A stretch of 64,000 nt of DNA from Psammoneis japonica (GCA_008632985.1 QPGO01000024.1:310001-374000); one strand, 5' to 3'. Counted from the stretch's first letter, positions 1-60,481 are shown. Numbers and translations are program-made. Notes: generated by a model from the sequence alone, not told the origin.

Positions 1-590
1 GGCAAAATGGAAAGCATTCTTGAGCACATTCTGGCATGTGGGCAGCACTGTCACCAAGAGGGCTGCTCTGCAGAGGAAGAGGGAAACAGGCAACAACATT
101 TTGCAAGAACTGTTTTGTGTCAATGGTCGGGTGGGATGTGGCAGCATCTGGACTTTGATGGAGCATTTGGCGGACAAAGCTTGAGCACAGAGAGTTGTCC
201 ACTCAAGCTCCACAAGTGGCACTTTCCAAAGGTGACACCACACATGGGCCATGTGTTCATGCATCAACATGCCTCAAGCTGCAAGTCACATAAAAAAACC
301 ACCACCGACCTTTCAACCAACCACCATCATGGACAGAACAGGTCAAGAGGTTCAAAACAAGAGCGATTCATTGACTCTCTTCTGGTTCCATGCATTCAAG
401 AGCTTCTTGTCCTTCTCAAATGTTTGTTGTGCATTGTTGTCTCTTTTAATTCAAGTGCAAAGAGGAGTCACTTTTCTTGTTTCCATCTCTTGAGATGTTG
501 TTGGTTGTTGAGTGATGCAATTTTTGTTGTCACATTTTTGGAAATGTTGGCAAACCCGATCACTGCTTGATTGTCAACCCATTTACTGTT
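1..590. other. TpA- and CpG-depleted hypermutated domain D1 (runs off the window start)
   Basis: TA and CG nearly absent, TG/CA abundant; ORF-track peptides are Cys/His-rich and lack Tyr. Border approximate. Confidence 0.75.
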
Positions 591-1022
591 TTAAGTCTCC
601 ATGGCATAAAATGCCATAATTCCAGAGCCCTCAATTGTTTCATCAAACGCAGTGCTTTGAAACACGTCCAACATCAACTCGACTCAGTTGAAATCCCAGT
701 TTGTGGGCGATGAAAAATCACGAATGTCAAACAAATGGCTACTTTCGACATCAAGATCCCCGAGTTCAATCCAAATGTGACGGTACGCCTCACAGCTTAT
801 GGCCATGACACATACAAGCATGCCTCATTGTTGTCATCGCGTCGAGTACTCGTATCGAAAATGCCGATAGATCAAAGTTCAGGAAAAGGATGGAATACAA
901 ATTCATTTGTGTATTCATTAGTGGCATTGGCGTAATGATATTTACGGCAGAAGCAATCTAAAATCCTTATTCATCATTGACATTTCTGTATTGCTCAGAT
1001 TTTGAAATCTGACCACTACCGT

Positions 1023-1159
1023 TAAGCATTTAGCTGTCTTTGTATGGAAGTGGAAATGACACTTAAGTATTTACACTAACCATTTAGCTTTCTTTGTGTC
1101 GAAGTGGAAATGACACTTAACGATTTACACTAACCATTTAGCTTACTTTGGCTCGAAGT
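1023..1159 (+). repeat. 54-bp tandem repeat, about 2.5 copies (TAACCATTTAGCT..CTTTG..GAAGTGGAAATGACACTTAA..ATTTACAC)
   Basis: Units start at 1023, 1077 and 1131. Confidence 0.9.
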
Positions 1160-1225
1160 CAGACAAAGAGATTGGGCTATGGGCTTATCGTTAACCAGCC
1201 ACGAGCATGAAATCTTTACCGCAAA
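1131..1225 (+). repeat. Dispersed repeat; inverted homolog at about 24515-24670
   Basis: Shared blocks AACCATTTAGCTT, TACTTTGGCTCGAAGT, TGGG.TATGGGCTT and AGCCACGA.CATGAAATCTTT.CCGC match the reverse complement of 24515-24670. Confidence 0.8.
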
Positions 1226-1329
1226 AAGAGGTTTTCAAAAGGTCCCCGATGACGGCAAGACGAAATTGTGGCACTGTAAGTAAGTAAGTGGCAATTAAGT
1301 AAAGTGGGGCCCTCAGTAAGTTGAAAGTT

Positions 1330-4300
1330 GTTGAAAGCATGTTGGATGTCAACAAAGAGCAGAGAGAAGGTGAGCATTGTTGGCCAATTGGCCTGGGTGA
1401 AAGATGGAATTTCTTTTCACTCCTGAACAATTTTGGTCCCCTCTGCCGCAGGTTCTTGGTCTTTTGAGTTCGATCCATTCGCGGCTCATTCTCTGCCATG
1501 CTCAATTCGCAGAAATTGTCAGGTGCTCCAGACCACGGCAAAATTGATTGAGTGCCGACAATGCCATGTGGCGACATTTCTTGCACAGCTTCCTTCCCAC
1601 ATTGGCATGGCCGGCGACGAAGAGCAGCTTCTCGGGTCTGTCATGAGCCAAATCTTCTGCGAGCCGCGTGGATCAAAAGAGCATGTCCTGGAGGAGTGGC
1701 TGCAATTCAAGGAGGAAGGTGAGCAAAGCAGAGACAATGAGAGCTTTTGATGCCCGTTGTGACAGAGAGCTCCTTCGACAGTCTTGCCGACGTGCTCCAC
1801 GGAGGCAATGTTCAGGTCAGAGCTACGACGGCAGGCCCAGCACAAGGAGAGGATGCCCTGTGGGTGGCTGCACTCTTGGAGGAGTCACCGCATGACAGCA
1901 GCGCGAAGTGGAAGGCAGACAGACAGACAGATGGATGATGACGAAAGGCCGCCCCAGTTCCCCTCATTGTGTTTGGCGGATCACTGGCGACGATGGGATC
2001 AGTTGCGTCGACCCGCCATGGGCCGACAACGCTGAAAACATTGTTTTTGCACACTGGCATGCCTCACACAAATGCCCACAAGCTGTGTGTGGTGCCAACT
2101 GACCCATGGATTGGCTTCACCATCCTGATCAGCCTGCAAAACCATGATGAATCAGCCGTTGCTCTTGGATCTGGATGTGGTCTGCAAGCCAAGGCAATTG
2201 TGCATGATGCCTGTGCTGCTCTCGCCATTTCTGATTTATTCTGTCAGAATGCAAACAACACAGTTTGGTGTTTTGTTTCAGCAGGCTGAGATTTTCTCGC
2301 CACCGCAAACACCTTCTCTGATCACACTGAACTTGGGTGATCTCCGCAAACCAGTTGATCCGGATTGCATGTGATCCACCTTGTTTTGTCTGATCTCAAT
2401 GTCAGAATGCAAGCACATTGTGAAAATGGCCCAATGCCATCTGGGTTTGTCATCCTGAAACTGTCAGGTTGCTCCAAAAAATTGGCACATGCACCGCACC
2501 TTTCCTCTTTTTCCTCCGCCATTGCGGTTTTCAGATCTCACATCTGCCCCTCTTGTGCGCTCATTTTTGTGAATGCATTCTGACAATTGCAACGGTTCCA
2601 CATGAAAAAACTTCATGTTTTGTCATGTTCCGAACACATCCTGTCTTCAATTGTTTGGGAGCAGACATCCTCTCAAAACCACTTTGACCAAATGTCCTCA
2701 CATGAAGTCTGACACTGAATCACACATGTTTTCAGACATGTCTCTCAGATCCGGGAGCTCCCACAAATGTTTGATTCCTGATGCAACCAGCAGATCATCT
2801 GTGTGTTCCATGCTTTTTGTGCAAAAAATCGTGACCACAACTTTCTGAGATTTCAAATCTCTTAGGACGGAGCCTCGTTTCCCTCCATTTCTTTCTGTTC
2901 ATCAAAAATTTCGACCTGCTCCGCGTTGCTCTTGCTGTTCACACAGTGTTGGGGAACAAAATGGATGGAGCTAGATCCGCAGATTTGTTCCCTGTTTTCT
3001 AGCTGCTGTCTCAGCAGCACCACATGAGTGTGTGTGCTCGTGTGTGCCTCCATGCATTGGACATGTCCGTGCACTTGCTGTTGCGACCATTTGGCAGCTG
3101 GCACTGTGTCATGTCATCGGGGTCCAAGCCAAGGTGGTGGCAGGGAATCTGCAATTCCCAATGCTTCTGGTTTGGATCAAATTGAAAATGATGAAGCTGC
3201 GCTGTGTGACAGCTGTGTGTTCGCGTGCTTGCTTCAGGCTCGGTGTGCATTGTGTTGTCCTTCTTTGATGTTGCACTTTCATCACGCCTCACTGTTGAGT
3301 TGCATCTGCATTTGTTTGTGCTCTGGAGGCATTTGCTTCTCTGTTGCATGACCTTGCTGCTGCAAACAGCACAGCGGTTCTAACTGCGAAGCTGACAGGC
3401 ATTGCCACATCTCATGACGGCAACATTTTAGGCACGGAGGACTGCTTTGACAGAGTCAGCAGTTGTTCTGTCTTTGCACCCATGTCTTGCAACCTTGGCA
3501 TGACTCTCATTGAAGAACAAGAAGAAAGCGCCGTTGGCTGTTCAGACACAGATCAACAAAAGTGGCAGCGTCATTTTGGAAGGATTCAAATGGCAGTCAT
3601 CACATCTTGTCTTTCTTTGGAGCCAATTTGTGTGATTCTTGCAAAGCCAGAAAGAGGGAGGCAGGGTTCCTGTGTCACTCATTGACAACTTGCATGGATT
3701 CGCGCATTCTTGAAAGCTCGTGGTTTCTGTCTGATTTGCGGTTTACGCACATGACCAGGTCTGGTGGCAACAAAAGAGTGGTTAGCCCGAGCAGCCTGTT
3801 GTGACTCAAAGTGGACACAGATCATGCTGTTCCAGTGCAAAGTGGATTGACAGCATGTCGTTTGCTCTTGACACATGACTCACTTGAGAAAATGCCACCC
3901 GAGCTTTTTCTCTTTAAGAGAAACTGCCCGATGCAGTCACAGGTCTGTTTTGGGAAGTGCGGAACATGCACACTTGGACTCAAGGTTTGAAGATGAAACA
4001 TGTGTTGAGCGTGCAGCCAAAGTTTTGGAAATTAGAATTGCCAAGGCAAAGGCCCACCATATGAACCAACTGATTGAGCAATTCGGTGCGGGATGACAGC
4101 AATCCATTGTGCCACAACACAACAAATTGCAAAGCACTTGGCAAAGTCCATGCGCAAAGGTGCCTCATTGCCTTGTCAGGGAAACTTTCCATTCTATGCT
4201 CAGGACGACATCAAGCTCCACAGGGCAAACATAATGGCATGAGACTTTCAGCAGGTGCTTGGACTTGCAGAGCAAAGACCAAATCCTTTTGTGGAACAAG

Positions 4301-5870
4301 AGTTTGCCCTTCGTGGGCTTCCAGCCATTGAGCACTTGGGAGCAGCAGGAGATGCCTGCGATGCAATTGATCTTTGTGACAATCGAACATCGCGCCTTGA
4401 AAACTTGCCGCGGCTCACATTGCTGAGCAATTTGATGCTGTCAGGAAAGGATGTCAAGCCCATGGATTCTGCAAATTTGCTGAAGAATGCACCCAAGCTA
4501 AAGCATCTTATCCTTGCATCTCAACCCTGCGCCGCCACTTGTGGCGTCTGGGGAAGCTGCAGAAGATGAGGAATCGCATCCCAAGAAGAAATGCAAAACA
4601 TGATTTGTCATTCTGGGATGCTTTTTGTGGGGAAAATGTCACTCTGGTGGTGCTGTGATTGGCTAAAGCAATTGGACAAATGCAGCTTTGCCAAACTTGT
4701 AAAAAATGCTTTTCAGATTTCTGAGCTTTTCCAAAGAATGTTCTGCATCTGACATGACAACAATGTGGTTGCTGCATCACTGATGCACACACCTGTGTGC
4801 CCAATGTTGGTTCACTTGCCTCACAAGATTCCTTCCAAGACTCAACCACATGCATCAAAAGGTGCATTTCTTGGGACTTGTCATTCACCCACCCTCCTCC
4901 TCTGTCCCTTCAAGATTGACCCCCTTGCCCCCAACTGTGCTCCCCCCAATCATGTGTTCTCCACTCCATTTTTTGTTGCTGCGCAAATCCACTCAATTGC
5001 TGCACATCTTGTGCACCATGATGTCATCTGACCACAATGGCTGCACATCAAGGTCTTTCCACCCAAGCACATCAAGCGCCCCTGCATTTCCTGGATTTCC
5101 CATCAACCCACCCTCCTGCACCTTCAACTCAAAACACCTGAGCAAACAAGAACTGTGGCATTCAATCTTCACACTGCCACAACCACACTGATGCCACTCA
5201 CTCCCATGTGTGGCTTTGTGCTCCTCCTCCTGCTGCTGCATTTTGTGCCATGTTGTGCAATGCAATGCCCCCACACTCCCCATCTTGTCTCACAATTTTT
5301 CAAACTGGCTTCTCCCGCCAGAGCAGCTGCAATGCAACCCACCCCCCCCCTCCCCTCCATGAAGACAATGTCCAAATGCAATGCCAGCTGCTGAGTGGGA
5401 CAGCCCAGGACAACTGGCCTCCCTGAAGAAGACTGGCTGCACCACAAACCTCCTTTGCCACCAACCCCAGCTTCAGCTTTCTCTCAACCAGCGCGCTTCC
5501 TGTGCGCTGTGTGGCAGCTCTCTGTGTCATGCCCTTTGCACTTTGAGCTCCAACCTCACTGCACAGAAAATGCTGCAAACAAATCGTTGCAGACACACTG
5601 AATCAATGCTTTTGCACTGCTTTGTTGTTGCCCCCTTTTCGCAGCTGGTGAGAGCTCTGAGGTGTTTTTGTGGGGCTTGTCTCTCTCACGAGAGTTGCCT
5701 TCTTCTCTCTTTCAGCGTGGCTGCTGGCCGCTCGTTGTCACACACACTGTACATTGAACATGTGATGACATGGCCTGCTTGGTTTCAGCCGTGCCCAAGC
5801 TTGTTGCACCATGTGGCAAGGATTTGTTGTGTGGGGCCCGCTTCCTTGGCATGTGTGAGTTGTGGGTGAC
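1330..5870. other. TpA-depleted hypermutated domain D2 containing degenerate gene fragments
   Basis: Near absence of TA; Tyr-poor, Cys/His-rich ORFs in all frames; includes the U2A' relic. Confidence 0.8.
4239..4520 (+). pseudogene. SNRPA1: U2 snRNP protein A' (LRR) N-terminal pseudogene fragment
   Basis: MRLSA / VLGLAEQRPNPFVEQEFALRGLPAIEHLGAAGDACDAIDLCDNRTSRLENLPRLTLLSNLMLSG matches the U2A' N-terminal LRR pattern. Frameshift after codon 5; conserved Ile is now ACA (Thr). Confidence 0.8.
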
Positions 5871-6059
5871 GCGCAAGATAAACAACGCGCGAATCATCTT
5901 CAAGATCTGGATCTGGATCTGCGAGATCTTTTTTTTTTCTCATTTTGCTATGCGCTATGCCGTTGGCCGTCGGCAACTGGCGATTCGTTGCTATAGTCAT
6001 TTACGAGTAATCTGTTACTCCATCGTCCCAGTCTCTCTTCTGTTATCTGCCCATTTGTA

Positions 6060-34802: not shown

Positions 34803-34872
34803 AAAGTCTGCAATCACCAACCACTGAGTGGTCAATGAAAGTCTGCGATCACCAACCACTGAGTGGTCAATG
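34803..34872 (+). repeat. 35-bp direct repeat x2 with an internal palindrome ACCACT-G-AGTGGT
   Basis: AAAGTCTGC(A/G)ATCACCAACCACTGAGTGGTCAATG at 34803 and 34838. Confidence 0.9.
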
Positions 34873-46049: not shown

Positions 46050-47190
46050 GAACGCACACCTCTGTGCAATGCTTGATCCTGTTTGCATCGTGCCGCGGCA
46101 CCAGCCGAAGAATCACTGACTGCAACAAGGCTGCAACGCCATTGTTTGTTTGTTTTGCCTCATGCACACAGCTCGGCTGGTGCTTTGTCCATCATTCTTG
46201 GTCCAACGTTGTGCAACATTTTGAAATCCTGCAAAGCAACAAAAGACATGAAAGAATGTAAAGACCCCTGTCTGTTTTACTTCAGTTGAGCTCAAACTTT
46301 TCAAGTCTCCACCCTGGCACTCCTGTGCACCTGACTGTGCCAGCAGTCCACAAGCTCTTCCCTCTCAACTCCCTCTCAAGTCTCCCAGCAGACAGAGAAA
46401 ACCATCACCTCAAAGACCTCTCTGGTTGCCTTCTCTCTGGTTTCCAAACTGTGAGGTGACAAGGTCAAACCCGCCACTCAGAATCTCAAGAAAAGCTTTT
46501 TGCAGGTCTTGCTGCTGCAGGTGCCCTTGGCAACAGTGATGGCTCCTTCTGAAAAAGTGGCCAGGATTGGGAAAGAAGCCAGCAGTTAGAAAAAAGACAT
46601 TGTTTGGAGCAAGCAGGAAATGCAAGATTTCTGGAGTTGAAGTTGTTGAAGAGAAGATGCTTTGGCTGCTGATGTGGTGGATTGGATGGCACTTTGGAAA
46701 TGATTCTGAGCATTTGTCACCGATCTCACTGACCTTTTTTCACCTCGCTCTTTGGAGTGGATCATCTGGTTTGTGTGAAATGCATTGTGGCATCAGTGGG
46801 CACCTGTTGTGTCGCGGGATTCAAGTTCACACTGAGGGCTTCAAGGCAAACCACAGCCACCATGGCAACCAGGACAAGTGCAATGAGTGATGCAGGAAAC
46901 CATCAAGGATTCTCTTTTGGCGGCAATGATGCTGCTGCCGGCTGCTGTCAGTTCAACAACAGCTTGTTTCTGCACCACTTGCTTTGCTCTGTTTTTGCTC
47001 TGATTGTCAGATGACCACTTGTTTGTGAGCCACGCTCATGGTCTTTGTTGGCAAAAACAAAAAATGGGTTTCACGTCCAAGTTCCAGGACAGCTCATTGT
47101 GTTTTGCATCATCTCTTCTCTTTCTTTGTCAGCAACGCAGAAGCAAAATCCAAACAAAACAGAGAGCAGGTTGCCTTTGCATCAAAAAGA
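46050..47190. other. TpA- and CpG-depleted hypermutated domain D6
   Basis: TA nearly absent between the FLAP1 3' region and tRNA-Lys. Confidence 0.75.
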
Positions 47191-47193
47191 CAA

Positions 47194-47266
47194 CACCGAA
47201 CGTGGGGATCGAACCCACGACCACACGATTAAGAGTCGTGCGCTCTACCGACTGAGCTAGTTCGGC
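47194..47266 (-). tRNA. trnK-CUU: tRNA-Lys(CTT)
   Basis: GCCGAAC TA GCTC AGTCGGTA GAGC G CACGA CTCTTAA TCGTG TGGTC GTGGG TTCGATC CCCAC GTTCGGT G; T5 terminator downstream. Confidence 0.97.
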
Positions 47267-49109: not shown

Positions 49110-52100
49110 CACTTTTTGATTCATGTCTCTTTCTCTTGTTCTGCCTGCGGCCTGCAGCACAGCACATGGTTGCTGCATGGTTTCCACCAGGTAAATCACT
49201 GGTTTACACAACCACAGCAAACCATGGTGCCCGGTCGATTGCACACGCCACTGTGTTCTTGGTGTCTCATGCATCGGTGTACAAAACAGCAAATGAGAAA
49301 GTGGGTCCACCGCACACTGCACATTTGCTGTGCCAATCTGTTTCTCTCTTGTTCGTCATGCAGGAAGCTGCACTCCTCACATGCTCACAGTTGTGAAGCC
49401 TGCCCAAAGGCCTGGTCCAGTCGACATCATCATCTGCCTCTGCCAGGCAAAGTCTTCAAATTCAGAGTCTTCATCATCTGAGTCTGCTTGCAGGTCGTGG
49501 TCGTCTTCGTCTGAGTCTACTTCCAGATCATGGTCATCTGAATGCATGGTGTGCAACGAAGCGTCATCCGAAGCGTCGTCCGAGCATGTGTCTGCTAACT
49601 CATTGGAGTCAGCTGCTGCCTCCTCATCAATCCACTGACCGTAAAATGTTGGTTTCCCACGACTTCGAGGACCTGATGCATTGTTGTCAGTCGCAGGAGG
49701 GCTTGCCAATTCAACGGTCTCTTCCTCGGCGCTGTCGCTCTCTGCAGGTTCGACGGCATCAACTGAAGATGCACCGGTGGGATTCATCAAGTCTGATGCA
49801 TTGTCATCAATCGCAGCCAACGCAACAACATCTTCCTCGGGTTTGTGCTCTTTGTACGTTCGACGGCATCGACTGAAACAGCACCTGTAGGATTTGTCAA
49901 GCCTGACTCTGGCAGATCCTTCCTGTTTGCACCGGCAGCCTTCGTCGCCTTGGATTGGGGGATTTCCTTCCTGACGTTTCGGCAAGCTTCTTTCTCTTGG
50001 GTTTTGGAGGATCCTTCCTGCCGGCAGACGCCGCCGACACCGCAGCCTTCCTCTTGGTTGAATTCCCACTGGCAGACTCCACCAATGCCGCAGCCTTGCT
50101 CTTGTTTGATGACTTGGGGAATCCTTCCCAGCAGAAATGGGACGAGTGTCGTAATTGGCAACAAGGCCGCGAGCAATGGACAATGCAAGTGCCATTTTTG
50201 TGGATTTTTTGCCACGAGTGTTCCCTTCCAATTCAGCTCTGGCCATTGCAGCTGCTTCACGCTCCTCGTCAGACACCCGGCACTCTTCACGAATGTTCCA
50301 CACTTTTTGAGCTTTTTCAACTTTCATCAAGCACTTCTCCGCCGTTTCACAGCATTGAAATTTCAAGCATTTGATTTTCCCGTCCGCGGCAAATGTCGGC
50401 TCATTCATGGCAATGTTCTCCTTTTCCCGAAGAAGCAGAATGTCGAACAAGGCGACAACGTCGTTCCAGCACATGTGCGTTCTACCGCACTGACGAATGC
50501 AGCAAAGCAGGGTCCGACCACACAACTCGTTGAACCAGTCATCATGCTTCAGTCCTTTTACGCAGATGAATCGGTTTTCTTTGGTTGACTTTTTGCGAAT
50601 TCCACGGCGCTGTCAGTCTTGCTCCTCTTCGGCCCTCTTCCTGTTCCTTTCCGAACAAAGTGAATCGTCTGCGGTGAGTTTTTCTTGTTGACGGTCCTGG
50701 CAGTGCCGTTGCTTGATGCGTTCCTTGTTCTCAACAGCAATGAGACCAAGTGTTGCAACTTGCATCTCACGCACTTGTTTCACGCACTCGGAATGACAGT
50801 CAACCCACTTTTCCAAGGTGTCGAGGCGTTCCTGCTGCTCGCTGGAGAGGTCGCTCAAGCTTCGAAGGTGCGCCAACTCGCGACGCTCCATTTTGCGATG
50901 GCATCGCTGACAAACAAAACAGCCAGCACAACCGTGGCCGCCCCCTGTCGTCGACCCCACGCAAAACATGGTCCGAGAATCATTGTCCACACCATTTTCT
51001 TCGTCAGCCGTCCAAGGGCATGCTTCGGCGGGAATGCCAGCAATGGCGGGGGCACAGGGGCAGCTCCACTGAAGACTCCAAGGTGAGATTGGATCAGAGT
51101 TGGCATCCGTCAACATTTTGAGGTCATGAGCTTCCAGCAATTTGCAAAAGTTCCGTTCGGATAGAGACATGCCAAACCACAATGCATCATGGCAATTGAG
51201 CTTCAATTGTTTGGAGACCGGCAGTGCACCCTCCTTTGGTCCAGCAAAGTATCCGTTGGGCATCGCAAGGCGGCGACCCTTGTAGAAGCACTCGTCTTTA
51301 CACTTGTCAGTGTCTTGCTTGCCACAACTCATCAGGAATGACTGGAGCATATTGTGTTGGTTCTGTCTTGTCCGCCGAGATGATTCCGGACGCCGGACAA
51401 CAATTCCAAAAACGTTCGATGCGCCTTGACGGAACTAAAACGAGATTGCAGCGATGTCTCTTCGGCAAACGCAACAAAGAACGATGACGCAATGATGATG
51501 CGATGTTAGTCGATCGAGAACGGACAAGACATGGCGCGCGGTCGGGCAAGACATCAACACTCTCGTCCATGTTGACAGTCTCTTGGAACCATTTACCATG
51601 CTCTTTCTCCAGAGCGGTGACAGCACTCCGTTCAAGAACAATGACATTGTTGGTCGGCATTGACTTCAGAAGCCGTTGCAGGATGTCACGTGCACCTTTT
51701 GCAAGTGACTCCGCAGCAGGAGGTGTGCAGTGACTCTTGTTTGCCCCCTGCAACTTCGTCATGACGGTTCGAATGACCTTTTTGTTTTCACTTGTCATGG
51801 GCTTGACCAAAGACGTTTCCAACTCGGCAAGCACTTCTTGCAGTTGGAGCTCGCGTGGACTCGTCTTGATGGAGTCTTTGAAACCCCCGCAGCAATGTTC
51901 CCCAACAGACTCCATGGCTCGATTGTTCGCAATGAAGCCTCCCTTGGGTGGTGCTGGTGAGAGCATGCACTGAAGGAACTCGGTGGTCTCGGACATTTCT
52001 TGCAATCGGCATGGGAGTGTTGGCCAAGAAAATTGAAAGAATGTCCCACTTGGTGGAATGGGCGCATCAACCATGAATGCCTTGGCATCGTTGTCAATGG

Positions 52101-52720
52101 GAACCGGTGCAAGGGCATCCAGCACCGCAAATCCATTTTTGATCTAAAAGTCGTGCGGCGAATCGAATGTTTGTTTGTTTTCCGATGCGCGTGCGGCAAT
52201 GGAATGACACTCCAATCTTGATTTTTCCATTGGCTCGCACAATGATGTAGATGCCCATCTCGTCATCTGTCAAGGTGACTGGCTGCCACCATTTCTCATG
52301 AAGTTCTCCCTTGTTGTTCTGGCATTCTTGTCGGATGTGTTGCATCAAGCGTTGCTTGAGTCTTTCTGTTTTGTTGGTCATTGTGGATGGGGATCCATCG
52401 CCACCTACGGCAACGCGGGTCGCAAGTCGAAGCCGTTTGGACAAATCTTGAATCGCGTCGTTCAGCTCCGTGCAGGTCTTGGGAGTCTTTAGAGAGAACT
52501 TTTTGCCTTCCCATTCAATCCTTGGTTTCTTCTTTGCCATCTTGGAGTTGGCAGCAGTGGCGAGAGTGCACGGCGCAATGAAGGTGCGGTGCAGAGCGTG
52601 CGGCACGGAGCGCGCAGTGTTGTCAATCTGCATCGATGCGAAGAACTCGACAAAGCAGTTGGACGAAATTGACAACAATGATCAGCGCAGCACATGTGGC
52701 GTCATGGTGCTTTGCTTGCC
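49110..52720 (-). mobile_element. Unclassified repeated element, copy A: degenerate ORF(s) with an N-terminal GIY-YIG-like motif, Cys-rich region and acidic tail
   Basis: MAKKKPRIEW…EMGIYIIVRANGKIKIGVSFH(Y>C)RTRI; homologous to copies B and C. Mobility inferred from copy number. Confidence 0.65.
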
Positions 52721-54939
52721 TTGTTGCAATTGTGGTGGTGACGGCTGCGGCAAACAAACAGTTGTGAGCTCGAGGTGCAGGAGCAACAGCAACCAGATGC
52801 TTGGTCCATGGAGTCGCAACGGCTCTCTACAAAAAGGAGGAACGAGTCGATTCAACCTGCGGAAACCAGATGGAAGCACCGCATGGTTGTCAGTGATGTT
52901 CCACGAGAAGTCACGGTGCGATGATTGCGGCATGGTCGGCTTTCCTGTCAATGTGCTTTGCTGTGGCGGACGCCAATGTGCACGGGTGAATGGCAACAGC
53001 GGCAATGAGAATGGAGACAAGAGAAAGAAGCGTGATGACATTGATTTTGTGCGGCAGCAAGCACGTGATGGAAGTGCGCATCAATCAAGATCGAACTGTG
53101 CAACGAACCAAAAACGCAACAAGAACGGCAAGCGACGACGCCACAACATGCGACGTGTGTTGCGACACACGCCAACAGCATGTCTCTTGAGTGGCGAACG
53201 GACGAGCGTCATCGTTGATGCGTCATGGTGCTTTGCATTGCTTGCTTCGTACCTCGTTGATTGATTGTGGCGAGTGTGCAAAAAAAATGCCAGAACGGTG
53301 ACCGCGCTGAGGTGCGCCAGCCGTAGATTTCCACACAACCGTGCTAAAAAAATTTTCCCGCCAAAGGAGGGATGCTGGGATGAGGCCCAACGGGTCCAAA
53401 ACCCCCATTTTTTGCCAAAATGAGTTTCTGCTAGCTAGCCAACTACTCTAACACCACACTGTGTAATGATGGAATCCCGGCGACGGGTTGAACATTGGGC
53501 TCGCCAATCTTTGAGCACACGTCGGCTGCAATTTTCCGAGCCAGTGAGGAGCTCTTGACTGAGGAACGGCACTGTTGAAACGATTGGTAGAAAATCTAAC
53601 TACATTTCACCGTGCGCGTTGTTGTGCACAGTTGTGTGCTGGAATTGCAGTTTGGACTTGCCATTGCACACCTGCTGCCAGAGCACTCAACTTCTATCTC
53701 GGCACCTCATCCGGTTGACGGACGGACGCTCGCCTTTGTGCGCGAGCGTGCGCGCGCTCTGCGCAAACAATGAATGAGGCAAGCAGCAAGCAAGAATGAT
53801 CATCACAATGAGCAAGGGGAGAAATGAACGAAACCCTAACCACCAACAAACTGGCACTGCACCCTGCCTGCCACATGCATCCACTTCTGAAAGCCTTTGT
53901 GGCATTGTGAATTGTGAGTGACAAGTGTGAAAGATTGGCGCGCAAATTGATGTGTCGACGTGAGTGTAAAGATTTTCTCGGTAATGCATGGTGTGTGGTG
54001 TAGTTTAGTCGCCTTCTGCCTCTCTGTTTTGCATTTTGTTGCGACTTGTTGTTTGTCCACAATGGACGCTTGTCGCTCACATGGCAATCTCTTTCATCGC
54101 GTTTTGCGCATGCTGTGATTCTTTGTCACTTCTTTTTTTTTCAGCGTTGGGTGCATTGTGTTGAACTCCACACAATTTTGGAAAGCGTTCTGGGTTCTAC
54201 CAACAACAACCTTCATCAACACCGGCATCACATGACATTTCTGAAGACGTCAACCTCCCTCTCGAGTCCACTGCCAGGTGTTTTCTCTCTTCTCAGTGTC
54301 ATCAGTCAGCTCCGGTGCAAGCATTGCTTGGCTTGAGTTTCAGTTCACAATAGATTGAAGGGGCGCCGCTTTGTTCGAGTGGAAGGCATGCCGTACAGTG
54401 GGGCTGTCTGGAGCCGCACGTTCATTTTCAACCTCATCATTCTTCTCGCATGGTGTGCGATGCATCTCATCGTTTCATTGTTCAACAACCATGCCAAATG
54501 ATCCAATTCTCATGTTTGAGCTTCTTGTTTGTTCTTGTTCAAGGTCCCTGCTTGAGCACGGCACACCCCGACAAGAAAGTTTGCTTTGTCAATTTTGGTG
54601 AGTGCGAGCTTGCGCGTCTTTTCTGTTTTTTGTTGCACATTTTAAATCCAATGCTTCTAGTCCATTTCTCCTCCTTGGGCTTTGCTTCAACTGCATTCAA
54701 AATTCCTTTCAGCTCTCTTGTCTAAAAGACGTAAAAGTTTCTTTTATGCCTCCTCGCTGAAAATTGAGGGAGCGGCATCGCTGCAGAGCAAAAGCGATTC
54801 GAGCGTGAATGGTCTTGGCAACCAACTCCTTCAGCTTGAGGCAGTCTTCTTCTCATTTACTTCTCCGGTGAGTCTGTGAAACATCTCAGTCCATGAGATC
54901 ATCTCAAAGTGCCCACTGCACATTCAGCATGTGTTGCAT

Positions 54940-57060
54940 CAATTCCTCGTCTCTTTTCTCTCGTTCTGCCTGCAGCACGCGTTGCACTGTTCCCAAATCA
55001 TCAGTTTACACAATCACAGTAAACATTCTTGGCATCTCATGCATCGGCGCACAAAACAGCGAAAGCAAAAGTCCACCGCATGCCAAGTGCTTGCCGCACC
55101 ACTCTGTTTCTCCCGGTCGACATCATCATCTACCTCCACCAGGCAAAGTCTTCAAATTCAGAGTCTTCATCATCTGAGTCTGCTTCGAGGTCATGGTCGT
55201 CTGAGTCTGCTTCCAGATCATGGTCATCGGAATGCAGAATGTGCAACAAAGCGTCATCCGAAGCGTCGTCCGAGTGTGTGTCTGCCAACTCATTGGAGTC
55301 AGCTGCTGCCTCCTCATCAATCCACTGACCGTAAAATGTTGGTTTCCCATGACTTCGAGGACCCAATGCATTGTCATCAGTCGCAGGAGGGCTTGCCAAT
55401 TCAACGGTCTCTTCCTCGGCGCTGTCGCTCTCTACAGGTTCGACGGCATCAACTGAAGCAGCCCAGTGCCGGCAGGATTCGTCAAGCCTGATTCTGGCGG
55501 ATCCTTCCCATTTGCACCGGCAGCCTTCGTCGCGTTGGATTTCGGGTGCTCCTTCCTAGACGTGTCGGCAACCTTCTTTTTCTTGGGTTTGGGAGGATCC
55601 TTCCACCGCTAGACTCCACCGATCCGCAGCCTTTCTCTTGTTTGATTTTGTGCCGGCGGACGCCACCAATGCCACAGCCTTCTTCTTGGTCGACGATTCG
55701 GGGGGATCCTTTCTACTCGAAAGTGGACGAGTGTCGTAATTGGCAACAAGACCGCGAGTGATGGACAATGCAAGTGCCATTTTTTTATTCTCTTTGCCAC
55801 GAGTGTTCCCTTCCAAGTCAGCTCTGGCTTTTGCGGCTGCTTCACGCTCCTCGTCAGACACCCGGTGCTCTTCACGAATGGTCCACATGGACTGAGCTTT
55901 TTCAACTTTCATCAAGTGCTTTTCGGCGGTTTCGTGGCATTGAAATTTCAAGCATTTGATTTTCCCGTCCGCGGCAAATGTCGGCTCATTCATGGCAATG
56001 TTCTCCTTTTCCCGAAGAAGCAGAATGTCGAACAAGGCGACAACGTCGTTCCAGCATGCCTGCTTTGTACCGCACTGACGAATGCAGCAAAGCAGGGTCC
56101 GACCACACAACTCGTTGAACCAATCATCACACTTCAGTCCTTTTACGCAGATGAATCGGTTTTCTTTGGTTGACTTTTTGCGAACTCCGCGGCGCTGTCG
56201 GTCTTGCTCCTCTTCGGCCCTCTTCCTGTTCCTTTCCGAACGAAGTGAATCGTCTGCGGTAAGTTTTTCTTGTTGACGGTCCTGGTGGCGCCGTTGCTTG
56301 ATGCATTCCTTGTTCTCAACAGCAATGAGACCAAGTGTTGCAACTTGCATCTCACGCACTTGTTTCGCGCATTCGGAATGATGGTCAACCCACTTTTCTA
56401 AGGTGTCGAGGCGTTCCTGCTGCTCGCTGGAGAGGTCGCTCAAGCTTCGAAGGTGCGCCAACTCGCGACGCTCCATTTTGCGATGGCATCGCTGACAAAC
56501 AAAATAGCCAGCACAACCGTGGCCGCCCCCTGTCGTTGACCCTGCACAAAACATGGTCCGAGAATCATTGTCCGCATTGTTTTCTTCGTCAGCCGGACAA
56601 GGGCATGCTTCGGCCGAATGCCAGCAATGGCGGGGGCAGCTGGGCAGGTCCACTGAAGACTCCAAGGTGAGATTGGATCAGAGTTGGCATCCGTCAACAC
56701 TTTGAGGTCGTGAGCTTCCAACAGCTTGCAAAAGTTCCGTTCGGATGGAGACATGCCAAACCACAATGCATCGTGGCAATTGAGCTTCAATTGTTTGGAG
56801 ACCGGCAATGCACCCTCCTTTGGTCCAGCAAAGCATCCGTTGGGCATCGCAAGGAGTCGCGCCTTGTAGAAGCTTTCGTCTTTGCTTGTCAGTGTCTTGC
56901 TTGCCACAACTCATCAGGAATGACTGGAGCATCTTGTGTTGATTCTGTGCGCTTTCCGCCGAGACGATTCCAGACACCCGAGACGATTCCAGACACCGAC
57001 AATAACTCCAAAAACTTTCGATGTGCCTTGACGGCATGAAAGCGATGTTGGTGCGATGAT
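54940..57060 (-). mobile_element. Same element, copy B (lacks the GIY-YIG-like part)
   Basis: High nucleotide identity to 49110-51440; private 19-bp tandem duplication at 56959-56996. Confidence 0.75.
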
Positions 57061-57479
57061 GATGCTGGGCGAGCACGAACAAGATTCAGTGCTTTTTTTT
57101 TTGCGGGGAAATTCCACACCAGTGTTTTCGTAGAAATCAACCTGAATGCACCACATGTTCACAAAAACTGAACATCAAATTTGGCTCCACATTGTGCTTG
57201 TGGATTCTGCGACTCCGTGCTTTGGGCCCCAACAGTGTGTAGATGCTGTGGGGCTTTTTGGCGGGAATTGGTGTCCACCACAGTGACAAAGTGTCTCAAT
57301 GGGTGAGCTGACAATGCCAACATCACCGTGCCACGCCTCTTGATGGAACATCACTCGATCGCATCCATGCCATGCTTCCACATGCTTCCCACAGGTCGAG
57401 TCGACTGATCACTCTCTCCTGCACCTTGAGCTCACAATTTTTTGTTTGCCATGGGCAGCCATCATTCTCACAATGAGGT

Positions 57480-60000
57480 GGCAAGCAATGCACCATGATG
57501 CCACGCACTCAGCACCAGTTTGTTGATTGTTGCCATGTTTTGTCCAGCTGCTTTGTTGAGCTCATCAATCACACCACATGCTCGCTGCCATGTGCTCCAT
57601 CAATGTGCACTCTTGCTCCCATTGCCAACTCCAAGACGGCAAAGAAGAAACCAGTGATTGAGTGGGAAGACAACACACGCCTCTCAAGGCTTCCAAGGTG
57701 ATCAAGGAGCCAAACAATGTGGTGACAATTTGTCCAAATGGCCTCAATTTGCAACCCATGTTGTGCTGCAGGCAGCAATGGATCCTCAACAACAGCCAAC
57801 AAAGCTGGATGACTGAAGTGGTGCTTGACACAACACAACCTCTGACATGAGTGCAAGAGCAACAAGGCAATGCTTTGTGTGGTGGCAGCCAGGAGACACC
57901 TTGACAGAAGATGAGACTGGCACCCACATCATTGTCTGTTCCAGTGGAAGAGCCAAGAGTGGAGTGCCGCCACAACAAACAGACACTTGGCCAACTTGTG
58001 GCCCACCTTTTGGATCAAAAATGGATTTGCAAGCTTTTCACCAGGCAACTCCTTGCCAATGTCAAAGCTCTGGAGCTGGGTGGCATTGTCACACACCCGC
58101 TGATCAACGCAGGAGATTGGCAATCTCATCATGTGATTGATGCAAGTGTTCGGGAAGCAGTGGCACCACCGATGCTCAAATGCAAGTGGGGTCTTGCTGG
58201 AGAGCAGTGCATTGCTTCCCCATTCTTGCAAGTTGTGAAAACCCTTGTGCCAGCTCCTGTCAACAATGGCACCAAGGCATTTGTGGCAGATTCTCTCACC
58301 CCACCAAATGGAGTGTTCTTTCAGTTTTCTTGGCCTGCTCTTCCATCAGGACTGCACGGAAATTGCAAGACAAGTGAGCTTCTTTGTTGTGCACTCTTGC
58401 CAGCACTGCCAAAGGAAGGCAGTTTCATCAAGAACAGCCAAGCCATTGAGTTTGTTTGGGAAGATTGCTGTGGTGGCTTTGAAGACTTCACATCAAGACA
58501 AGTCCATGTGAGCTCCAATTGCAAGAAGTGTGTGTCTGCTGATTTGTTGGAGATGCCATGGTGAAATCGCATGGGAGAAATCAGAGTCATTGCACATGTC
58601 TTCTGACCATGAAGAACATCTTGCAAAGGGTGTTTGTGATGTCCTCCTTCAATGGCTTCTGGCATCAACACCTGTCAACAGCATTGTCTCACTGTGATTG
58701 AGTGGAGCAGTGCCACCACTTTGAAAAAAGAGCACAGCACCAGCTGGCCCCTCCAAGAGACACAGTTGGCAAGGATGCCACATTGACATCTTGCCTGGCT
58801 GCACACTGTGTCTTGTCTTTTGCCAAAGAAATGCAGTGCCAGTGCTGCAGCATGGCCTTTCAAGGCATGCCAAACATTTTTTGTGTTGTTGCATCATTTC
58901 AGCTGAGAATGTGCAAGATCAATGCAAAACTCTCCAGCAACTTCTGACTCCAGCCACTCTGGATTGAAAACCAGAAGCTGACAAGCACAAAGAAAGCACC
59001 TCAGCAACACAAGGGCTGTGTTCAAATGGCTGAGCCTGGGTTGCCAAGATGCCTTGTGGTTTGACACATCTCTGTCTGAGTTCCCTGTTTTGCAAACACT
59101 GATGATGCATGCTGGCAGCTCCTCTGCTGCAATTTCACCTTGGGTTTGCCATTGCCAAAATTCCAACTTAAATTTGCCCTTGGATGTTGGATGGCAGATG
59201 ACAGAATCATGTGGGCAGCGGCTGGCAGGTCTTTTGTTTGTGTGTCAGCAACGCTGCTGCCAAACAGAGACTTGAAAGTTGCCCTGCCCTCTCAGGAAGA
59301 GTGCGCCTCAGCTCCCTTGAAGGGTGGTTGTCTGTCATGGCAATTGTGCAAAGTGAGTGCATGAGAGGGGGGAGAGAGAGAGAGACTTGGGGCAACACAC
59401 AGTCTGGTCGATGATGAGACCACAAGAAGTGCACATCATCAAGAAGCAGCATTGTTGCCACTGGGATTTTTGGCTGTTGACATCACCCTTCTTCATTCCA
59501 AATGAAAGAGGAACATGGCTGACAAGGAGCAAGACTGGCAGAGCAACGGCATCCTCAAGAAGTCAGCCAAAGAAAATTGCCAACTCATCTGAAGACAAAA
59601 GGTGAATGAGAGCAAGGCAGCTGGCTCAATGAGTTGTGTGGTTGGGCCCTCTGTTTTGCTGGATTTGTCAGTGCAGCATGGTGCATGTCTGCTGGAATTT
59701 CTTTGTTGCCTTTTTTCAACACTCTGCTTCTTTGGGAAATGGGGGGAGGCATTGCTGCAGCGGTGGGAAGCAACACTTTTGTGCATGTGCGCCGCAAAGA
59801 GAGAGAAGGGAAAGAAGCCAAAAACACTTGAAATGTCAGCAGCACTGCACACAACAGCAGAAATGCACTTGGTTGGGGCAGATGAAAGTCAGTGTGGTGG
59901 ACAACAGTGAAACAAGTCATGAGCTCAAGGTGCGTGAGAGTGGAGCTCCGTCAGAAGAAATGCGTGCTCTGCGAGAGGCAACAAATGGTGCACAGAGATT
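57480..60000 (+). mobile_element. Same element, copy C, inverted and more heavily decayed
   Basis: AKKKPVIEWE, LLDQKWIC, FFQFSWP, CCGGF, DALWF, ISPW, WLNELCG collinear with copy A. Confidence 0.75.
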
Positions 60001-60481
60001 TGATTTGAGCAAGTCTCATGCTTTGGCAAAACCACCACACTGCAGCAAAAAAATGCATTTCAGTCATCAGCTTGTGCTTCTTTTGTGCTTTGCACCAGTC
60101 ACCAGTGCAGCACCGAGAAAGAAGCAACTAACAGCAGAAATCGTGTTGAGCCTGCCTGCCCACCCGGAACGCAACGCAATCGCAATGCAATGTTGTTGTG
60201 GGTGCCGTCCATCCCTCTCCCGTGCGTCGCGCTTCACGCACCCGGCCGCTCTCGCGTATTGCGCGCGGCCTGCCTCACCGGGCTTTTTGTCCCGCCCGCC
60301 CCCACGCACCACACCACACACCACGCACCAGGCACATGTTGTTGCTTGTGCCCAATTTGCCACCATTTGATTGTCCTTTCGTGCAACCATCCTGTAAGCT
60401 AACAGACAAAAAAACGGCGATCCTTGTCTTGCCATCTAAACTTGCATTGAAGATACAAAGTAAAGAGACGCAATTCCTGCC

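What the first reader, a model, noticed from the sequence alone, without database searches (positions are those of the whole stretch)
1..60380. Candidate RIP-like genome defence: repeat-restricted TpA -> TpG/CpA (A:T->G:C) hypermutation
Seen: seven sharply bounded domains (about 1-590, 1330-5870, 14020-15290, 24790-34890, 37210-44105, 46050-47190, 47540-60380) almost lack TA and are rich in TG/CA, while host genes between them use TA and Tyr normally. Direction is fixed by conserved proteins. In the PLE RT, RFIDD reads RFTDD (ATA>ACA, 41496-41498), NLYLYIP reads NLCLHIP and TYQK reads TCQK. Paralogous copies A and B differ at TA vs TG/CA: 51250 TA / 56834 CA, 56505 TA / 50920 CA, 55433 TA / 49743 TG, 56260 TA / 50675 TG, 56399 TA / 50814 CA. 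Established: fungal RIP and 5mC decay are C->T and cannot remove TA (RIP creates it). Inference: an adenine-directed mutator acts on both strands of silenced repeats. Candidates are a TadA/ADAT-like DNA adenine deaminase (TadA acts on UAC), deamination linked to a modified adenine, or Pol-eta-like error-prone patch repair (WA->WG). I do not know a described system with this signature.
Basis: partly seen in the sequence, partly recalled or inferred. Interest (0 to 1): 0.95.

Follow-up and report, generated by a model that had tools for sequence, protein, structure and literature searches.

The report
TpA-erasing hypermutation of diatom transposons
More than half of this stretch of a probable diatom genome is dead mobile DNA in which almost every TA has been turned into TG or CA while neighbouring genes are untouched, the footprint of a targeted A:T-to-G:C mutator so far reported only once, in a 2026 preprint on an unrelated alga.

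Summary
They hold 184 TA in 37,249 nt (o/e 0.04-0.11), against 1,027 in 26,750 nt of host genes (about 0.57). The edges are step-like, within about 50 nt.

The direction is TA->TG/CA. In the Penelope-like RT fragment, consensus Tyr is kept at 0 of 7 columns (4 Cys, 2 His, 1 Asn). Phe is kept at 7 of 7, Ile at 2 of 9 (ACA x3, ATG x2), and all other residues at 50 of 58.

Both strands are hit equally (TG about equal to CA). Two duplicate pairs lost TA independently after duplication: 23 CA/TG doublets against 3 control doublets. So the process acts on DNA in place.

AA, AT and TT are not depleted. That argues against Pol-eta, ADAR and biased gene conversion. CpG decay is a second, slower process in the same domains.

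"Repeat-restricted" is not shown: one 3-kb depleted stretch has single-copy depth.

The signature is not undescribed. A 2026 bioRxiv preprint shows de novo TpA->TpG/CpA hypermutation in Bigelowiella natans. Host-gene homologues here are diatom-like, and six literature searches found no such report for diatoms. The enzyme is unknown; an adenine deaminase is the leading guess.

The parts
1..583 (.). TA-poor domain 1, cut by the window edge
   Evidence: 2 TA in 583 nt, TA o/e 0.05, CpG o/e 0.17, TG/CA o/e 1.80.
1318..5948 (.). TA-poor domain 2. It contains a degenerate U2 snRNP A'-like (LRR_9) pseudogene fragment at 4243-4566 (+).
   Evidence: 20 TA in 4,631 nt, o/e 0.07. LRR_9 at E 1.8e-11. U2A' chains in PDB, best E 9e-10; the frame breaks downstream.
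14209..15398 (.). TA-poor domain 3 (1,190 nt), an island between host genes
   Evidence: 4 TA, o/e 0.06, CpG o/e 0.34; no Pfam match; no similarity to domain 6 although the lengths are equal.
24820..34873 (.). TA-poor domain 4 (10 kb). It has degenerate minus-strand ORFs and a 610-nt tandem duplication.
   Evidence: 54 TA, o/e 0.09; the 471-aa ORF at 29560-30972 (-) is longer than in 199 of 200 Markov shuffles; that ORF has no homologue.
33506..34730 (+). Tandem duplication 33506-34115 / 34121-34730 (91.5% identity) whose two copies lost TA independently
   Evidence: dinucleotide pairs TA/TA 2, TA/TG 1, CA/TG 6, CG/CG 27, CG against TG or CA 11, control AC/GT 2.
37387..44111 (.). TA-poor domain 5. 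The left 3 kb has single-copy depth; the right part is multi-copy.
   Evidence: 16 TA in 6,725 nt, o/e 0.04; depth 55.9 for 37001-40335, against 382-849 in five of the six bins between 40336 and 44337.
40932..41640 (-). Penelope-like reverse-transcriptase fragment (RT motifs B to thumb). Every consensus Tyr is lost. It is flanked by 69-nt direct repeats at 40646-40714 and 41645-41713.
   Evidence: (1,362 homologues, best E 4.2e-42, 45% identity). Pfam gives no match to it or to 4 full-length homologues. The PLE label rests on motif resemblance that I recall, not on a call.
46040..47229 (.). TA-poor domain 6. By the HMM it runs about 36 nt into the 3' part of the tRNA-Lys gene.
   Evidence: 3 TA, o/e 0.04; tRNA-Lys at 47194-47266 (-).
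47194..47518 (-). TA-normal island: the tRNA-Lys(CTT) gene and its upstream flank, between two hypermutated domains
   Evidence: segment 47230-47518 has 23 TA in 289 nt, o/e 1.14..
47519..60394 (.). TA-poor domain 7 (12.9 kb), a nest of related elements of different ages
   Evidence: 85 TA, o/e 0.11, CpG o/e 0.72; 57501-59500 has TA o/e 0.00-0.00 and CpG o/e 0.04-0.17, while 49501-56500 has CpG o/e 0.68-1.16; 57416-59742 is an inverted copy at 68-73% identity; depth up to 1,627.
49417..51456 (+). Copy A of a two-copy element
55113..57058 (+). Copy B (87.5-89.6% identity to A by BLAST; 90.6% in the global alignment)
   Evidence: pairs TA/TA 5, TA/TG 6, TA/CA 8, CA/TG 17, CG/CG 93, CG/TG 9, CG/CA 20, control AC/GT 1.

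Best explanation
The TA-poor domains are dead mobile or duplicated DNA: a Penelope-like retroelement, unclassified multi-copy elements and a U2A' pseudogene. They sit between ordinary genes of a probable diatom.

After arriving in the chromosome, this DNA was hit in place, on both strands, by a mutator that converts A:T to G:C almost only at the self-complementary dinucleotide TpA. The result is TpG or CpA, depending on which strand was hit. The process stops within about 50 nt of host genes and tRNA genes.

It is fast. It approaches saturation while neutral divergence is only about 1% per copy. That is roughly two orders of magnitude above background and several-fold above CpG decay, which runs in the same domains as a second, slower process and suggests they are 5mC-marked.

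Its effect is to erase Tyr and ATA-Ile codons, TAA/TAG stops and, by inference, TATA and AATAAA signals. That disables the elements by missense changes rather than by creating stop codons.

It is the same kind of process as the TpA hypermutation seen de novo in Bigelowiella natans.

Shown here: the signature, its polarity, its strand symmetry, its post-duplication timing and its boundaries.

Inferred:
- The chemistry is deamination of adenine to hypoxanthine, read as G, by a TadA/ADAT2-type enzyme. The native tRNA site of such enzymes is U33-A34 (recalled). My odds for this are about 0.35-0.4.
- Targeting follows silent chromatin, small RNA or homology.
- The process serves as a genome defence.

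The confidence of 0.78 is for the process-level statement (a DNA-level, two-strand, TpA-specific A:T->G:C mutator confined to these domains), not for the enzyme.
For: 1. Depletion and boundaries.

2. Polarity. In the RT fragment, measured against 150 homologues, consensus (>=50%) Tyr is retained at 0 of 7 columns (TGT/TGC x4, CAC x2, AAT x1). Phe is retained at 7 of 7. Ile is retained at 2 of 9, with ACA x3 and ATG x2 among the changes. All other residues are retained at 50 of 58. Fisher's test for Tyr against the non-Tyr, non-Ile columns gives 4e-6. At the 12 columns where Tyr is >=30%, the window has 6 Cys, 5 His and 1 Asn, while no homologue has more than 4 Cys/His.

3. The family itself is TA-normal. 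80 of 80 related loci from metagenomes have TA o/e 0.60-1.13, and 0 of 1,081 one-kb windows fall below 0.3.

4. Both strands. TG:CA is 0.71-1.32 in every kb. On the RT sense strand there are 6 A->G changes (4 Tyr->Cys, 2 Ile->Met) and 5 T->C changes (2 Tyr->His, 3 Ile->Thr).

5. In place and after duplication. There are 23 CA/TG doublets against 3 AC/GT control doublets. Only about 1-2 doublets are expected from CpG. 15 sites are TA in one copy and TG or CA in the other. One of the two pairs is an adjacent tandem duplication.

6. Specificity. AA o/e is 1.31 against 1.17, TT 1.24 against 1.13 and AT 0.87 against 0.93, so none is depleted. The TA loss (0.034) plus the CG loss (0.021) is close to the TG+CA gain (0.052).

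7. TA loss precedes CpG loss. Copies A and B keep 93 of about 124 CpG in both copies, but only 5 of 36 scorable TA-lineage sites (5 TA/TA, 14 TA against TG or CA, 17 CA/TG).

8. Precedent. In B. natans mutation-accumulation lines, 230 of 231 mutations in two integrated viral regions are A->G or T->C and all of these fall on TpA. The genome has 124 TpA-depleted clusters, with RT and DDE domains enriched among TpA-depleted CDS.
Against: - No de novo event is observed here. Everything is inferred from fixed differences in one assembly.
- No genome is held. I could therefore not search for deaminases, map the signature genome-wide, or test whether intact TA-normal copies of these elements exist in this organism.
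- Only one element, the RT fragment, could be polarised against outside homologues. The two longest other ORFs have no homologues.
- A simple one-rate model does not fit copies A and B. It predicts 4.9 doublets against about 16 observed, so TA sites differ in rate or some TA were newly created.
- The mass balance and the context preferences assume that the elements began with host-like composition.
- Sequence alone cannot tell an adenine-directed from a thymine-directed lesion.
- 19 of the 21 listed allelic differences in the single-copy depleted stretch are at CpG and only 2 at TA. Present-day activity at TA is therefore not shown.
- The 80 comparison loci were found with a peptide pattern that contains Tyr, so they are biased towards unmutated copies.
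Confidence: 0.78

Rival explanations
1. The same targeted TpA process, but directed at thymine. The T of TpA in silent DNA is enzymatically modified (for example oxidised to 5-hydroxymethyluracil or further, by a TET/JBP-type enzyme) and then mispairs or is mis-repaired, giving T->C. This reads as TpA->CpA on one strand and TpA->TpG on the other.
For: TpA is self-complementary and the outcome is symmetric, so the sequence fits a T lesion as well as an A lesion. From memory, not from any call: base J sits at TpA in both strands of trypanosome telomere repeats, and dinoflagellate 5hmU is enriched at TpA and TpC.
Against: 5hmU paired with A is not known to be strongly mutagenic (recalled). I know of no evidence for such a base in diatoms, and nothing in the calls bears on it. 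The only study of the phenomenon favours adenine deamination, though also without direct evidence.
Confidence: 0.12
2. Error-prone patch repair by a Pol-eta-like polymerase, recruited to silent or damaged repeat DNA, miscopies T opposite template A at WA motifs.
For: Pol-eta gives A->G at WA in somatic hypermutation (recalled). A both-strand outcome would be possible.
Against: WA includes AA, but AA is not depleted (o/e 1.31 in the domains against 1.17 outside) and AG is unchanged (0.96 against 0.96). Near-total, context-exact removal of TA is unlike a polymerase error spectrum.
Confidence: 0.04
3. RNA-level A-to-I editing (ADAR-like) of element transcripts, fixed by reverse transcription, so that copies arrive already mutated.
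For: ADARs prefer a 5' U (stated in the preprint's Discussion). Step-like edges at element ends would follow naturally. One domain holds a retroelement.
Against: Editing of the sense RNA would give only TA->TG on the sense strand. The RT fragment has 6 sense A->G and 5 sense T->C changes, and TG is about equal to CA in every kb. An adjacent tandem DNA duplication lost its TA independently in the two copies. ADAR's looser neighbour preference should also thin out AA, and it does not. ADARs are metazoan (recalled).
Confidence: 0.03
4. No mutator: the elements are intrinsically TA-free (selection or foreign composition), or the pattern is an assembly or basecalling artefact at a modified base.
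For: Modified bases can cause systematic miscalls in some long-read assemblies (recalled). X1 may be the assembly's own data.
Against: The changes destroy conserved catalytic-core residues (Tyr 0 of 7, RFIDD->RFTDD), which selection for function would not do. 80 of 80 related elements elsewhere are TA-normal. Unrelated sequences, including a host-type pseudogene, share the depletion. Contigs built separately from run X1 agree with the TA-poor sequence. Their fragmentation in the repeats looks like short-read data, which is my inference.
Confidence: 0.03

Closest known systems
TpA->TpG/CpA hypermutation of integrated viral and other foreign DNA in Bigelowiella natans (Mettrop et al., bioRxiv 10.64898/2026.01.13.699255; I read the abstract, Results and Discussion and ran a term search; supplements are closed)
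   Same: The same dinucleotide target and the same two products. Host genes are spared. TpA-depleted, CpA+TpG-enriched clusters are associated with RT and transposase domains. The enzyme is unknown, with an ADAT2-like deaminase proposed.
   Different: That work saw de novo events in mutation-accumulation lines, mainly in a 186-kb giant-virus insert that still keeps TpA (Rho 0.45). Its clusters were defined at Rho <= 0.43. Here the host is a probable diatom (a stramenopile, not a rhizarian). The targets are a retroelement, unclassified repeats and a pseudogene. Depletion is near-saturated (o/e 0.04-0.11) over 58% of 64 kb. Only fixed differences are seen. The preprint does not mention diatoms (0 occurrences).
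Fungal repeat-induced point mutation (RIP)
   Same: A DNA-level mutator confined to sharply bounded non-genic segments. It acts on both strands, acts after duplication and ruins the coding capacity of mobile elements.
   Different: RIP is C:G->T:A, mostly CpA->TpA. It therefore creates TA and stop codons and lowers GC. Here TA is erased, TAA and TAG stops disappear and GC rises slightly. Dependence on duplication is not shown here. The RID/DNMT4 relatives reported in some diatoms are cytosine enzymes of unknown function (passages of PMC9998398).
5-methylcytosine deamination (CpG decay) in methylated transposons
   Same: It is present in the same domains. CpG o/e is 0.17-0.72. 19 of the 21 listed allelic differences in one depleted stretch are CpG against TpG or CpA. 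It adds to the TG/CA excess.
   Different: It cannot remove TA. It is also slower here: young copies keep their CpG (o/e about 0.9-1.0) but have already lost most TA.
Deaminase-based restriction of retroelements and viruses (APOBEC3 C->U on cDNA; ADAR A->I on dsRNA)
   Same: Editing is used as a weapon against selfish nucleic acids. ADAR shares the A->G outcome and a liking for a 5' U.
   Different: Those act on single-stranded cDNA or on RNA and leave strand-asymmetric footprints. Here the footprint is symmetric and arose in chromosomal DNA.

Membership tests
TpA-targeted A:T->G:C hypermutation of foreign DNA (B. natans type) | Changes are A->G or T->C and fall on TpA, giving TpG and CpA | tested here: met
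   Consensus Tyr 0 of 7, Ile 2 of 9, Phe 7 of 7 retained, with codons TGY, CAC, ACA and ATG. 15 sites are TA in one copy and TG or CA in the other, and there are 23 CA/TG doublets in two duplicate pairs. AA, AT and TT are not depleted.
TpA-targeted A:T->G:C hypermutation of foreign DNA (B. natans type) | Confined to integrated foreign or mobile DNA, with ordinary genes spared | tested here: met
   The seven domains hold a PLE-like RT fragment, multi-copy DNA and a pseudogene. All Pfam-identified host genes lie in TA-normal segments. Edges are within about 50 nt.
TpA-targeted A:T->G:C hypermutation of foreign DNA (B. natans type) | A local mutation rate orders of magnitude above the rest of the genome, seen as new mutations | not testable with these tools
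   Only an indirect estimate from copies A and B: roughly 100-fold above the other substitutions (my arithmetic). No mutation-accumulation or population data.
TpA-targeted A:T->G:C hypermutation of foreign DNA (B. natans type) | Same enzyme or common descent of the system | not testable with these tools
   The enzyme is unknown in both organisms, and no genome is held for this window.
Fungal RIP | C:G->T:A transitions that raise TpA and lower CpA/TpG | tested here: not met
   The opposite is seen: TA o/e 0.08 and CA/TG o/e 1.56-1.63.
Fungal RIP | Triggered by sequence duplication | tested here: inconclusive
   Most of the laid depleted DNA is multi-copy, but 37001-40335 has single-copy depth at >=90% identity and is still depleted. 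Older, more diverged copies cannot be excluded.
ADAR-type RNA editing fixed by retrotransposition | Strand-asymmetric A->G on the sense strand | tested here: not met
   6 sense A->G against 5 sense T->C in the RT. TG:CA is 0.71-1.32 per kb.
Pol-eta-type WA->WG mutagenesis | AA is affected as well as TA | tested here: not met
   AA o/e is 1.31 in the domains against 1.17 outside.
Penelope-like elements (for the fragment at 40932-41640, minus strand) | An RT of the PLE/telomerase-like type with its characteristic motifs | tested here: inconclusive
   1,362 homologues, best E 4.2e-42. Full-length homologues show the RT motif series, but Pfam names none of the 4 tested and PDB gives nothing. The PLE label rests on motifs recalled from memory. 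No GIY-YIG domain was seen.

The most novel reading that the evidence does not exclude
Diatoms and chlorarachniophytes, and perhaps a wider part of the SAR clade, share a dedicated chromatin- or RNA-guided DNA editing defence. It is a natural adenine base editor that recognises newly integrated or duplicated DNA and rapidly rewrites every TpA on both strands. In function it is a mirror image of fungal RIP, but with the opposite chemistry. Because some diatoms can be transformed, the enzyme and its guide could be found by genetics.
Probability: 0.4. Interest if true: 0.9.

Novelty: new member of a known kind. Interest (0 to 1): 0.72.

Why it matters
Targeted A:T->G:C hypermutation of chromosomal DNA is known from a single 2026 preprint in one alga, and its enzyme has not been identified. 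A saturated footprint in a probable diatom has four consequences:
- The process is not a curiosity of one lineage.
- It acts on transposons and pseudogenes as well as on viral inserts.
- It is fast enough to act as a genome defence.
- It places the question in a group that has tractable model species.

A natural DNA adenine deaminase, or whatever else does this, would also interest base-editing work.

There is a practical point too. The process removes TAA and TAG stops, so hypermutated DNA carries long spurious ORFs. It also makes TE proteins invisible to Pfam. Both mislead gene and repeat annotation.

Tried and rejected
- Whole genome: none is held. No genome-wide map and no deaminase search were possible.
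- Six-frame read-through of whole domains with stops as X against Pfam: the call returned an error because too much would be printed. I then scanned 150 of the 153 stop-to-stop ORFs of >=100 aa that overlap the domains, dropping three edge ORFs that lie mostly outside them. Only LRR_9 was significant.
- Homologue searches for the two longest ORFs in depleted DNA, 29560-30972 (-) and 49380-50612 (-): none in the 5.8-billion-protein set and none in viral contigs. Domains 4 and 7 therefore stay unclassified. A viral origin, as in B. natans, is neither shown nor excluded.
- ACOX homologue search for taxonomy: timed out. The diatom call rests on one gene: 109 hits, of which the 3 that carry an organism name are all diatoms, best identity 49%.
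- Earlier findings of this scan: nothing relevant in 4 look-ups.
- RNA: no RNA holder is listed. Run X2 behaves like RNA, with a spliced contig, but I drew no expression conclusion from it.
- Domains 3 and 6 are both 1,190 nt long, but they share no similarity, so this is coincidence.
- Biased gene conversion: rejected, because only TA among the A/T-containing dinucleotides is depleted.
- Long ORFs as evidence of genes: mostly chance. In 2 of the 4 domains tested, the longest ORF is no longer than in shuffled sequence.
- Literature: six searches found no report of TpA-specific hypermutation in diatoms or in any organism other than B. natans. Subscription journals are not covered.

Full report

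Yes. Sliding windows and a two-state HMM on the positions of TA both split the window into TA-normal and TA-poor DNA.

The seven TA-poor domains are 1-583, 1318-5948, 14209-15398, 24820-34873, 37387-44111, 46040-47229 and 47519-60394.

They cover 37,249 nt (58% of the window) and hold 184 TA. About 1,430 are expected at the rate of the remaining 26,750 nt, which hold 1,027 TA.

- TA o/e is 0.04-0.11 per domain. It is 0.44-0.67 in six of the seven TA-normal segments and 1.14 in the 289-nt tRNA segment.
- TG and CA rise to o/e 1.56 and 1.63, against 1.19 and 1.17 outside.
- The edges are steps. At 44111 there are 442 nt without TA, followed by 11 TA in 66 nt. At 24820 dense TA stops, and the next TA is at 26034.

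**2. What lies where?**

The TA-normal segments carry ordinary genes:
- acyl-CoA oxidase
- a patatin/DUF3336 lipase
- pterin-4a-carbinolamine dehydratase
- a CCCH/RRM protein
- a Na/H exchanger with TrkA-N
- HPPK-DHPS
- tRNase Z
- enoyl-CoA hydratase

They also carry two tRNA genes.

One of these host proteins has 109 homologues. The 3 that carry an organism name are all diatoms (Cylindrotheca, a Thalassiosira-like MMETSP entry, a Bacillariaceae MAG), and the best identity is 49%. So the window most likely comes from a diatom with no close relative in that database. This is an inference from one gene. It is not Bigelowiella.

Of 150 ORFs of >=100 aa in the TA-poor DNA, only one has a significant Pfam match. 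That is an LRR_9 fragment at 4243-4566 (+). It aligns to U2 snRNP A' structures (best E 9e-10) and is broken downstream. It is a pseudogene of a host-type gene.

The minus strand at about 40932-41640 encodes the C-terminal half of a reverse transcriptase. It has 1,362 homologues (best E 4.2e-42, 45% identity). The full-length homologues show a motif series that I recognise from memory as Penelope-like. Pfam does not name them.

The long ORFs elsewhere are largely a by-product of the loss of TAA and TAG. In 2 of the 4 domains tested, the longest ORF is no longer than in Markov shuffles. The 471-aa ORF (p 0.005) and the 411-aa ORF (p 0.035) stand out, but they have no homologues.

**3. Copy number**

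Contigs of public run X1 were laid on 37001-57000. Host DNA has depth about 56-59. Depth is 382-849 in five of the six bins between 40336 and 44337. It reaches 1,627 at 47673-48339. Copies A and B stand at about 100-120.

However, 37001-40335 has single-copy depth (55.9, one contig) although its TA o/e is 0.03-0.10. The mark therefore follows non-genic, largely repeated DNA, but 'repeat-restricted' is not shown.

The same contigs reproduce the TA-poor sequence. Four pieces have 0 differences. One 3,448-nt piece has 29 differences, and of the 21 listed for it only 2 restore a TA. This argues against an assembly or basecalling artefact, with the caveat that X1 may be the assembly's own data.

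**4. Direction of change**

I aligned the RT fragment to the 150 best homologues and looked at columns where at least half of them agree.

| Consensus residue | Kept in the window | What replaced it |
|---|---|---|
| Tyr | 0 of 7 | Cys TGT/TGC x4, His CAC x2, Asn x1 |
| Phe (similar chemistry, no TA in its codons) | 7 of 7 | none |
| Ile | 2 of 9 | Thr ACA x3, Met ATG x2, Val GTG x1, Leu CTG x1; both survivors are ATC |
| All other residues | 50 of 58 | various |

Fisher's test for Tyr against the non-Tyr, non-Ile columns gives 4e-6.

With a looser cut (Tyr >=30%, 12 columns) the window has 6 Cys, 5 His and 1 Asn. No homologue has more than 4 Cys/His there.

TAY->TGY or CAY and ATA->ATG or ACA are single transitions at TA, so the ancestral state was TA.

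The family is not intrinsically TA-poor. 80 of 80 related loci from metagenomes have TA o/e 0.60-1.13, and none of their 1,081 one-kb windows falls below 0.3. Those loci were found with a peptide pattern that contains Tyr, so hypermutated copies elsewhere could have been missed.

**5. Both strands, in place, after duplication**

TG and CA are equal in every domain and in every kb (ratio 0.71-1.32). On the RT sense strand there are 6 A->G and 5 T->C changes. A process limited to the transcript or to one cDNA strand would not give this.

Two duplicate pairs exist in the window. One is A/B (49417-51456 against 55113-57058). The other is an adjacent 610-nt tandem duplication (33506-34115 against 34121-34730).

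Aligned dinucleotides in A/B:

| Pair | Count |
|---|---|
| TA/TA | 5 |
| TA/TG | 6 |
| TA/CA | 8 |
| CA/TG | 17 |
| CG/CG | 93 |
| CG against TG or CA | 29 |
| AC/GT (control doublet) | 1 |

In the tandem pair, CA/TG is 6, TA/TA 2, TA/TG 1, and the control doublet 2.

A CA/TG doublet means that one palindromic dinucleotide was hit on opposite strands in the two copies. From the CpG numbers only about 1 doublet is expected in A/B, so about 16 derive from TA.

The copies therefore still held many TA when they were duplicated, and lost them independently afterwards. For the tandem pair this must have happened in the chromosome.

By my arithmetic, about three quarters of TA site-copies changed, while other sites changed at about 1% per copy and CpG at about 13%. 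That puts the TA rate roughly two orders of magnitude above background and several-fold above CpG decay.

A single-rate model does not fit: 4.9 doublets predicted against about 16 observed. So TA sites differ in rate.

**6. Specificity**

Only TA is lost among the A/T-containing dinucleotides. AA o/e is 1.31 against 1.17, TT 1.24 against 1.13 and AT 0.87 against 0.93. This speaks against Pol-eta (WA), against ADAR-like neighbour rules and against biased gene conversion.

Surviving TA are unevenly spread by context. The survival ratios are ATAC 0.015, ATAT 0.034, ATAG 0.05, ATAA 0.08, GTAC 0.08, CTAG 0.15, GTAA 0.16, CTAC 0.19, CTAA 0.26 and TTAA 0.41. These fit an additive rule in which the base 3' of the adenine matters in the order T>C>G>A. 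This assumes host-like starting composition and rests on 184 sites, so it is only a lead.

**7. A second process**

CpG is also low in the domains (o/e 0.17-0.72). The frequency losses of TA (0.034) and CG (0.021) add up to about the gain in TG+CA (0.052).

Of the 21 differences listed between the window and the X1 contig across the single-copy depleted stretch, 19 are CpG against TpG or CpA. This is as expected if the domains are cytosine-methylated. Transposons of Phaeodactylum are methylated through DNMT5a (passages of PMC9998398).

The two processes differ in speed. The younger part of domain 7 (49501-56500) has CpG o/e 0.68-1.16 but TA o/e 0.04-0.27. The older inverted copy at 57501-59500 has lost both.

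**8. Mechanism**

Shown: a TpA-specific A:T->G:C mutator that acts on both strands of chromosomal DNA, acts after duplication, and is confined to non-genic domains whose edges fall within tens of bases of genes and tRNA genes.

Inferred:
- The lesion is deaminated adenine (hypoxanthine pairs with C), made by a TadA/ADAT2-type enzyme whose natural tRNA site is U33-A34.
- Alternatively, less likely, the lesion is a modified thymine at TpA.
- Targeting is by silent chromatin, small RNA or homology.

The consequences are loss of all Tyr and ATA-Ile codons and of TAA and TAG stops. Probably TATA and AATAAA signals are lost too (inference).

**9. Comparison with what is known**

One now exists. Mettrop et al. 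(bioRxiv, January-April 2026; I read the abstract, Results and Discussion) report the following for B. natans mutation-accumulation lines:
- 231 of 302 new nuclear mutations fall in an integrated giant-virus region and a virophage region.
- 230 of those 231 are A->G or T->C, and all of these are at TpA.
- The rate is about 1,000-fold above background.
- The genome has 124 TpA-depleted, CpA+TpG-enriched clusters, and RT and DDE domains are enriched among TpA-depleted CDS.
- The authors propose an ADAT2-like deaminase.

The preprint does not mention diatoms. Six full-text searches found no other report.

The present window is therefore a second, independent lineage with the same signature. Here it is near-saturated and lies on transposons and a pseudogene. 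It is not RIP, which has the opposite chemistry.

**10. Verdict**

It is unproven on 'repeat-restricted' and on the enzyme, and it is out of date on 'undescribed'. This is a new member of a very recently described kind. It remains of high interest because the mechanism is open and diatoms offer a route to it.

Noticed in passing
window 47194-47518 and 36934-37005: tRNA-Lys(CTT) with its upstream flank forms a TA-normal island (23 TA in 289 nt) squeezed between two hypermutated domains. tRNA-Gln(TTG) lies about 380 nt before domain 5. The elements may prefer to land next to tRNA genes, or tRNA genes may act as barriers to the mutator.
   Followed up: partly
window 4243-4566 (+): A U2 snRNP A'-like (LRR_9) gene fragment lies inside hypermutated DNA, so a host-type sequence was treated like a transposon. 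Whether it is a retro-copy, a captured fragment or a duplicate is unknown.
   Followed up: partly
window 24820-60394 (TA-poor domains): Because TAA and TAG are gone, all six frames carry long open frames: 153 ORFs of >=100 aa overlap the domains. In 2 of the 4 domains tested, the longest ORF is no longer than in shuffled sequence. Gene finders would over-call here, and Pfam no longer recognises the RT.
   Followed up: yes
window 37240-40266: The X1 contig differs from the window at 29 of 3,448 positions here, against 8 of 3,202 in the gene region 44030-47231. 19 of the 21 listed differences are CpG against TpG or CpA. These are probably alleles of a diploid, with a CpG-driven excess of polymorphism in silent DNA.
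   Followed up: partly
window 44521-45994: Run X2, labelled as possibly DNA, holds a contig that skips 45233-45332 with GT..AG ends, so it behaves like RNA and defines a 100-nt intron in the host gene. X2 contigs also lie on parts of domain 7 (for example 54795-55166 at depth 1,341), at 90-95% likeness, presumably from other copies.
   Followed up: no
window 53400-54050: A sub-island inside domain 7 has intermediate TA (14 TA, o/e 0.34). It overlaps the only bin of that domain with single-copy depth (53676-54342, depth 64). This would fit lighter mutation of non-repeated DNA.
   Followed up: partly
window 34065-34872: Arrays of an 8-nt unit (GACTGCCC and variants) and a 35-nt tandem pair lie at the right end of domain 4, immediately before the host ORF that starts at 34877.
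   Followed up: no
window 40646-40714 and 41645-41713: 69-nt direct repeats (91% identity) flank the RT fragment about 1 kb apart. They differ at a TA/TG site and a TG/CG site. They may be the pseudo-LTRs of a tandemly inserted Penelope-like element.
   Followed up: no
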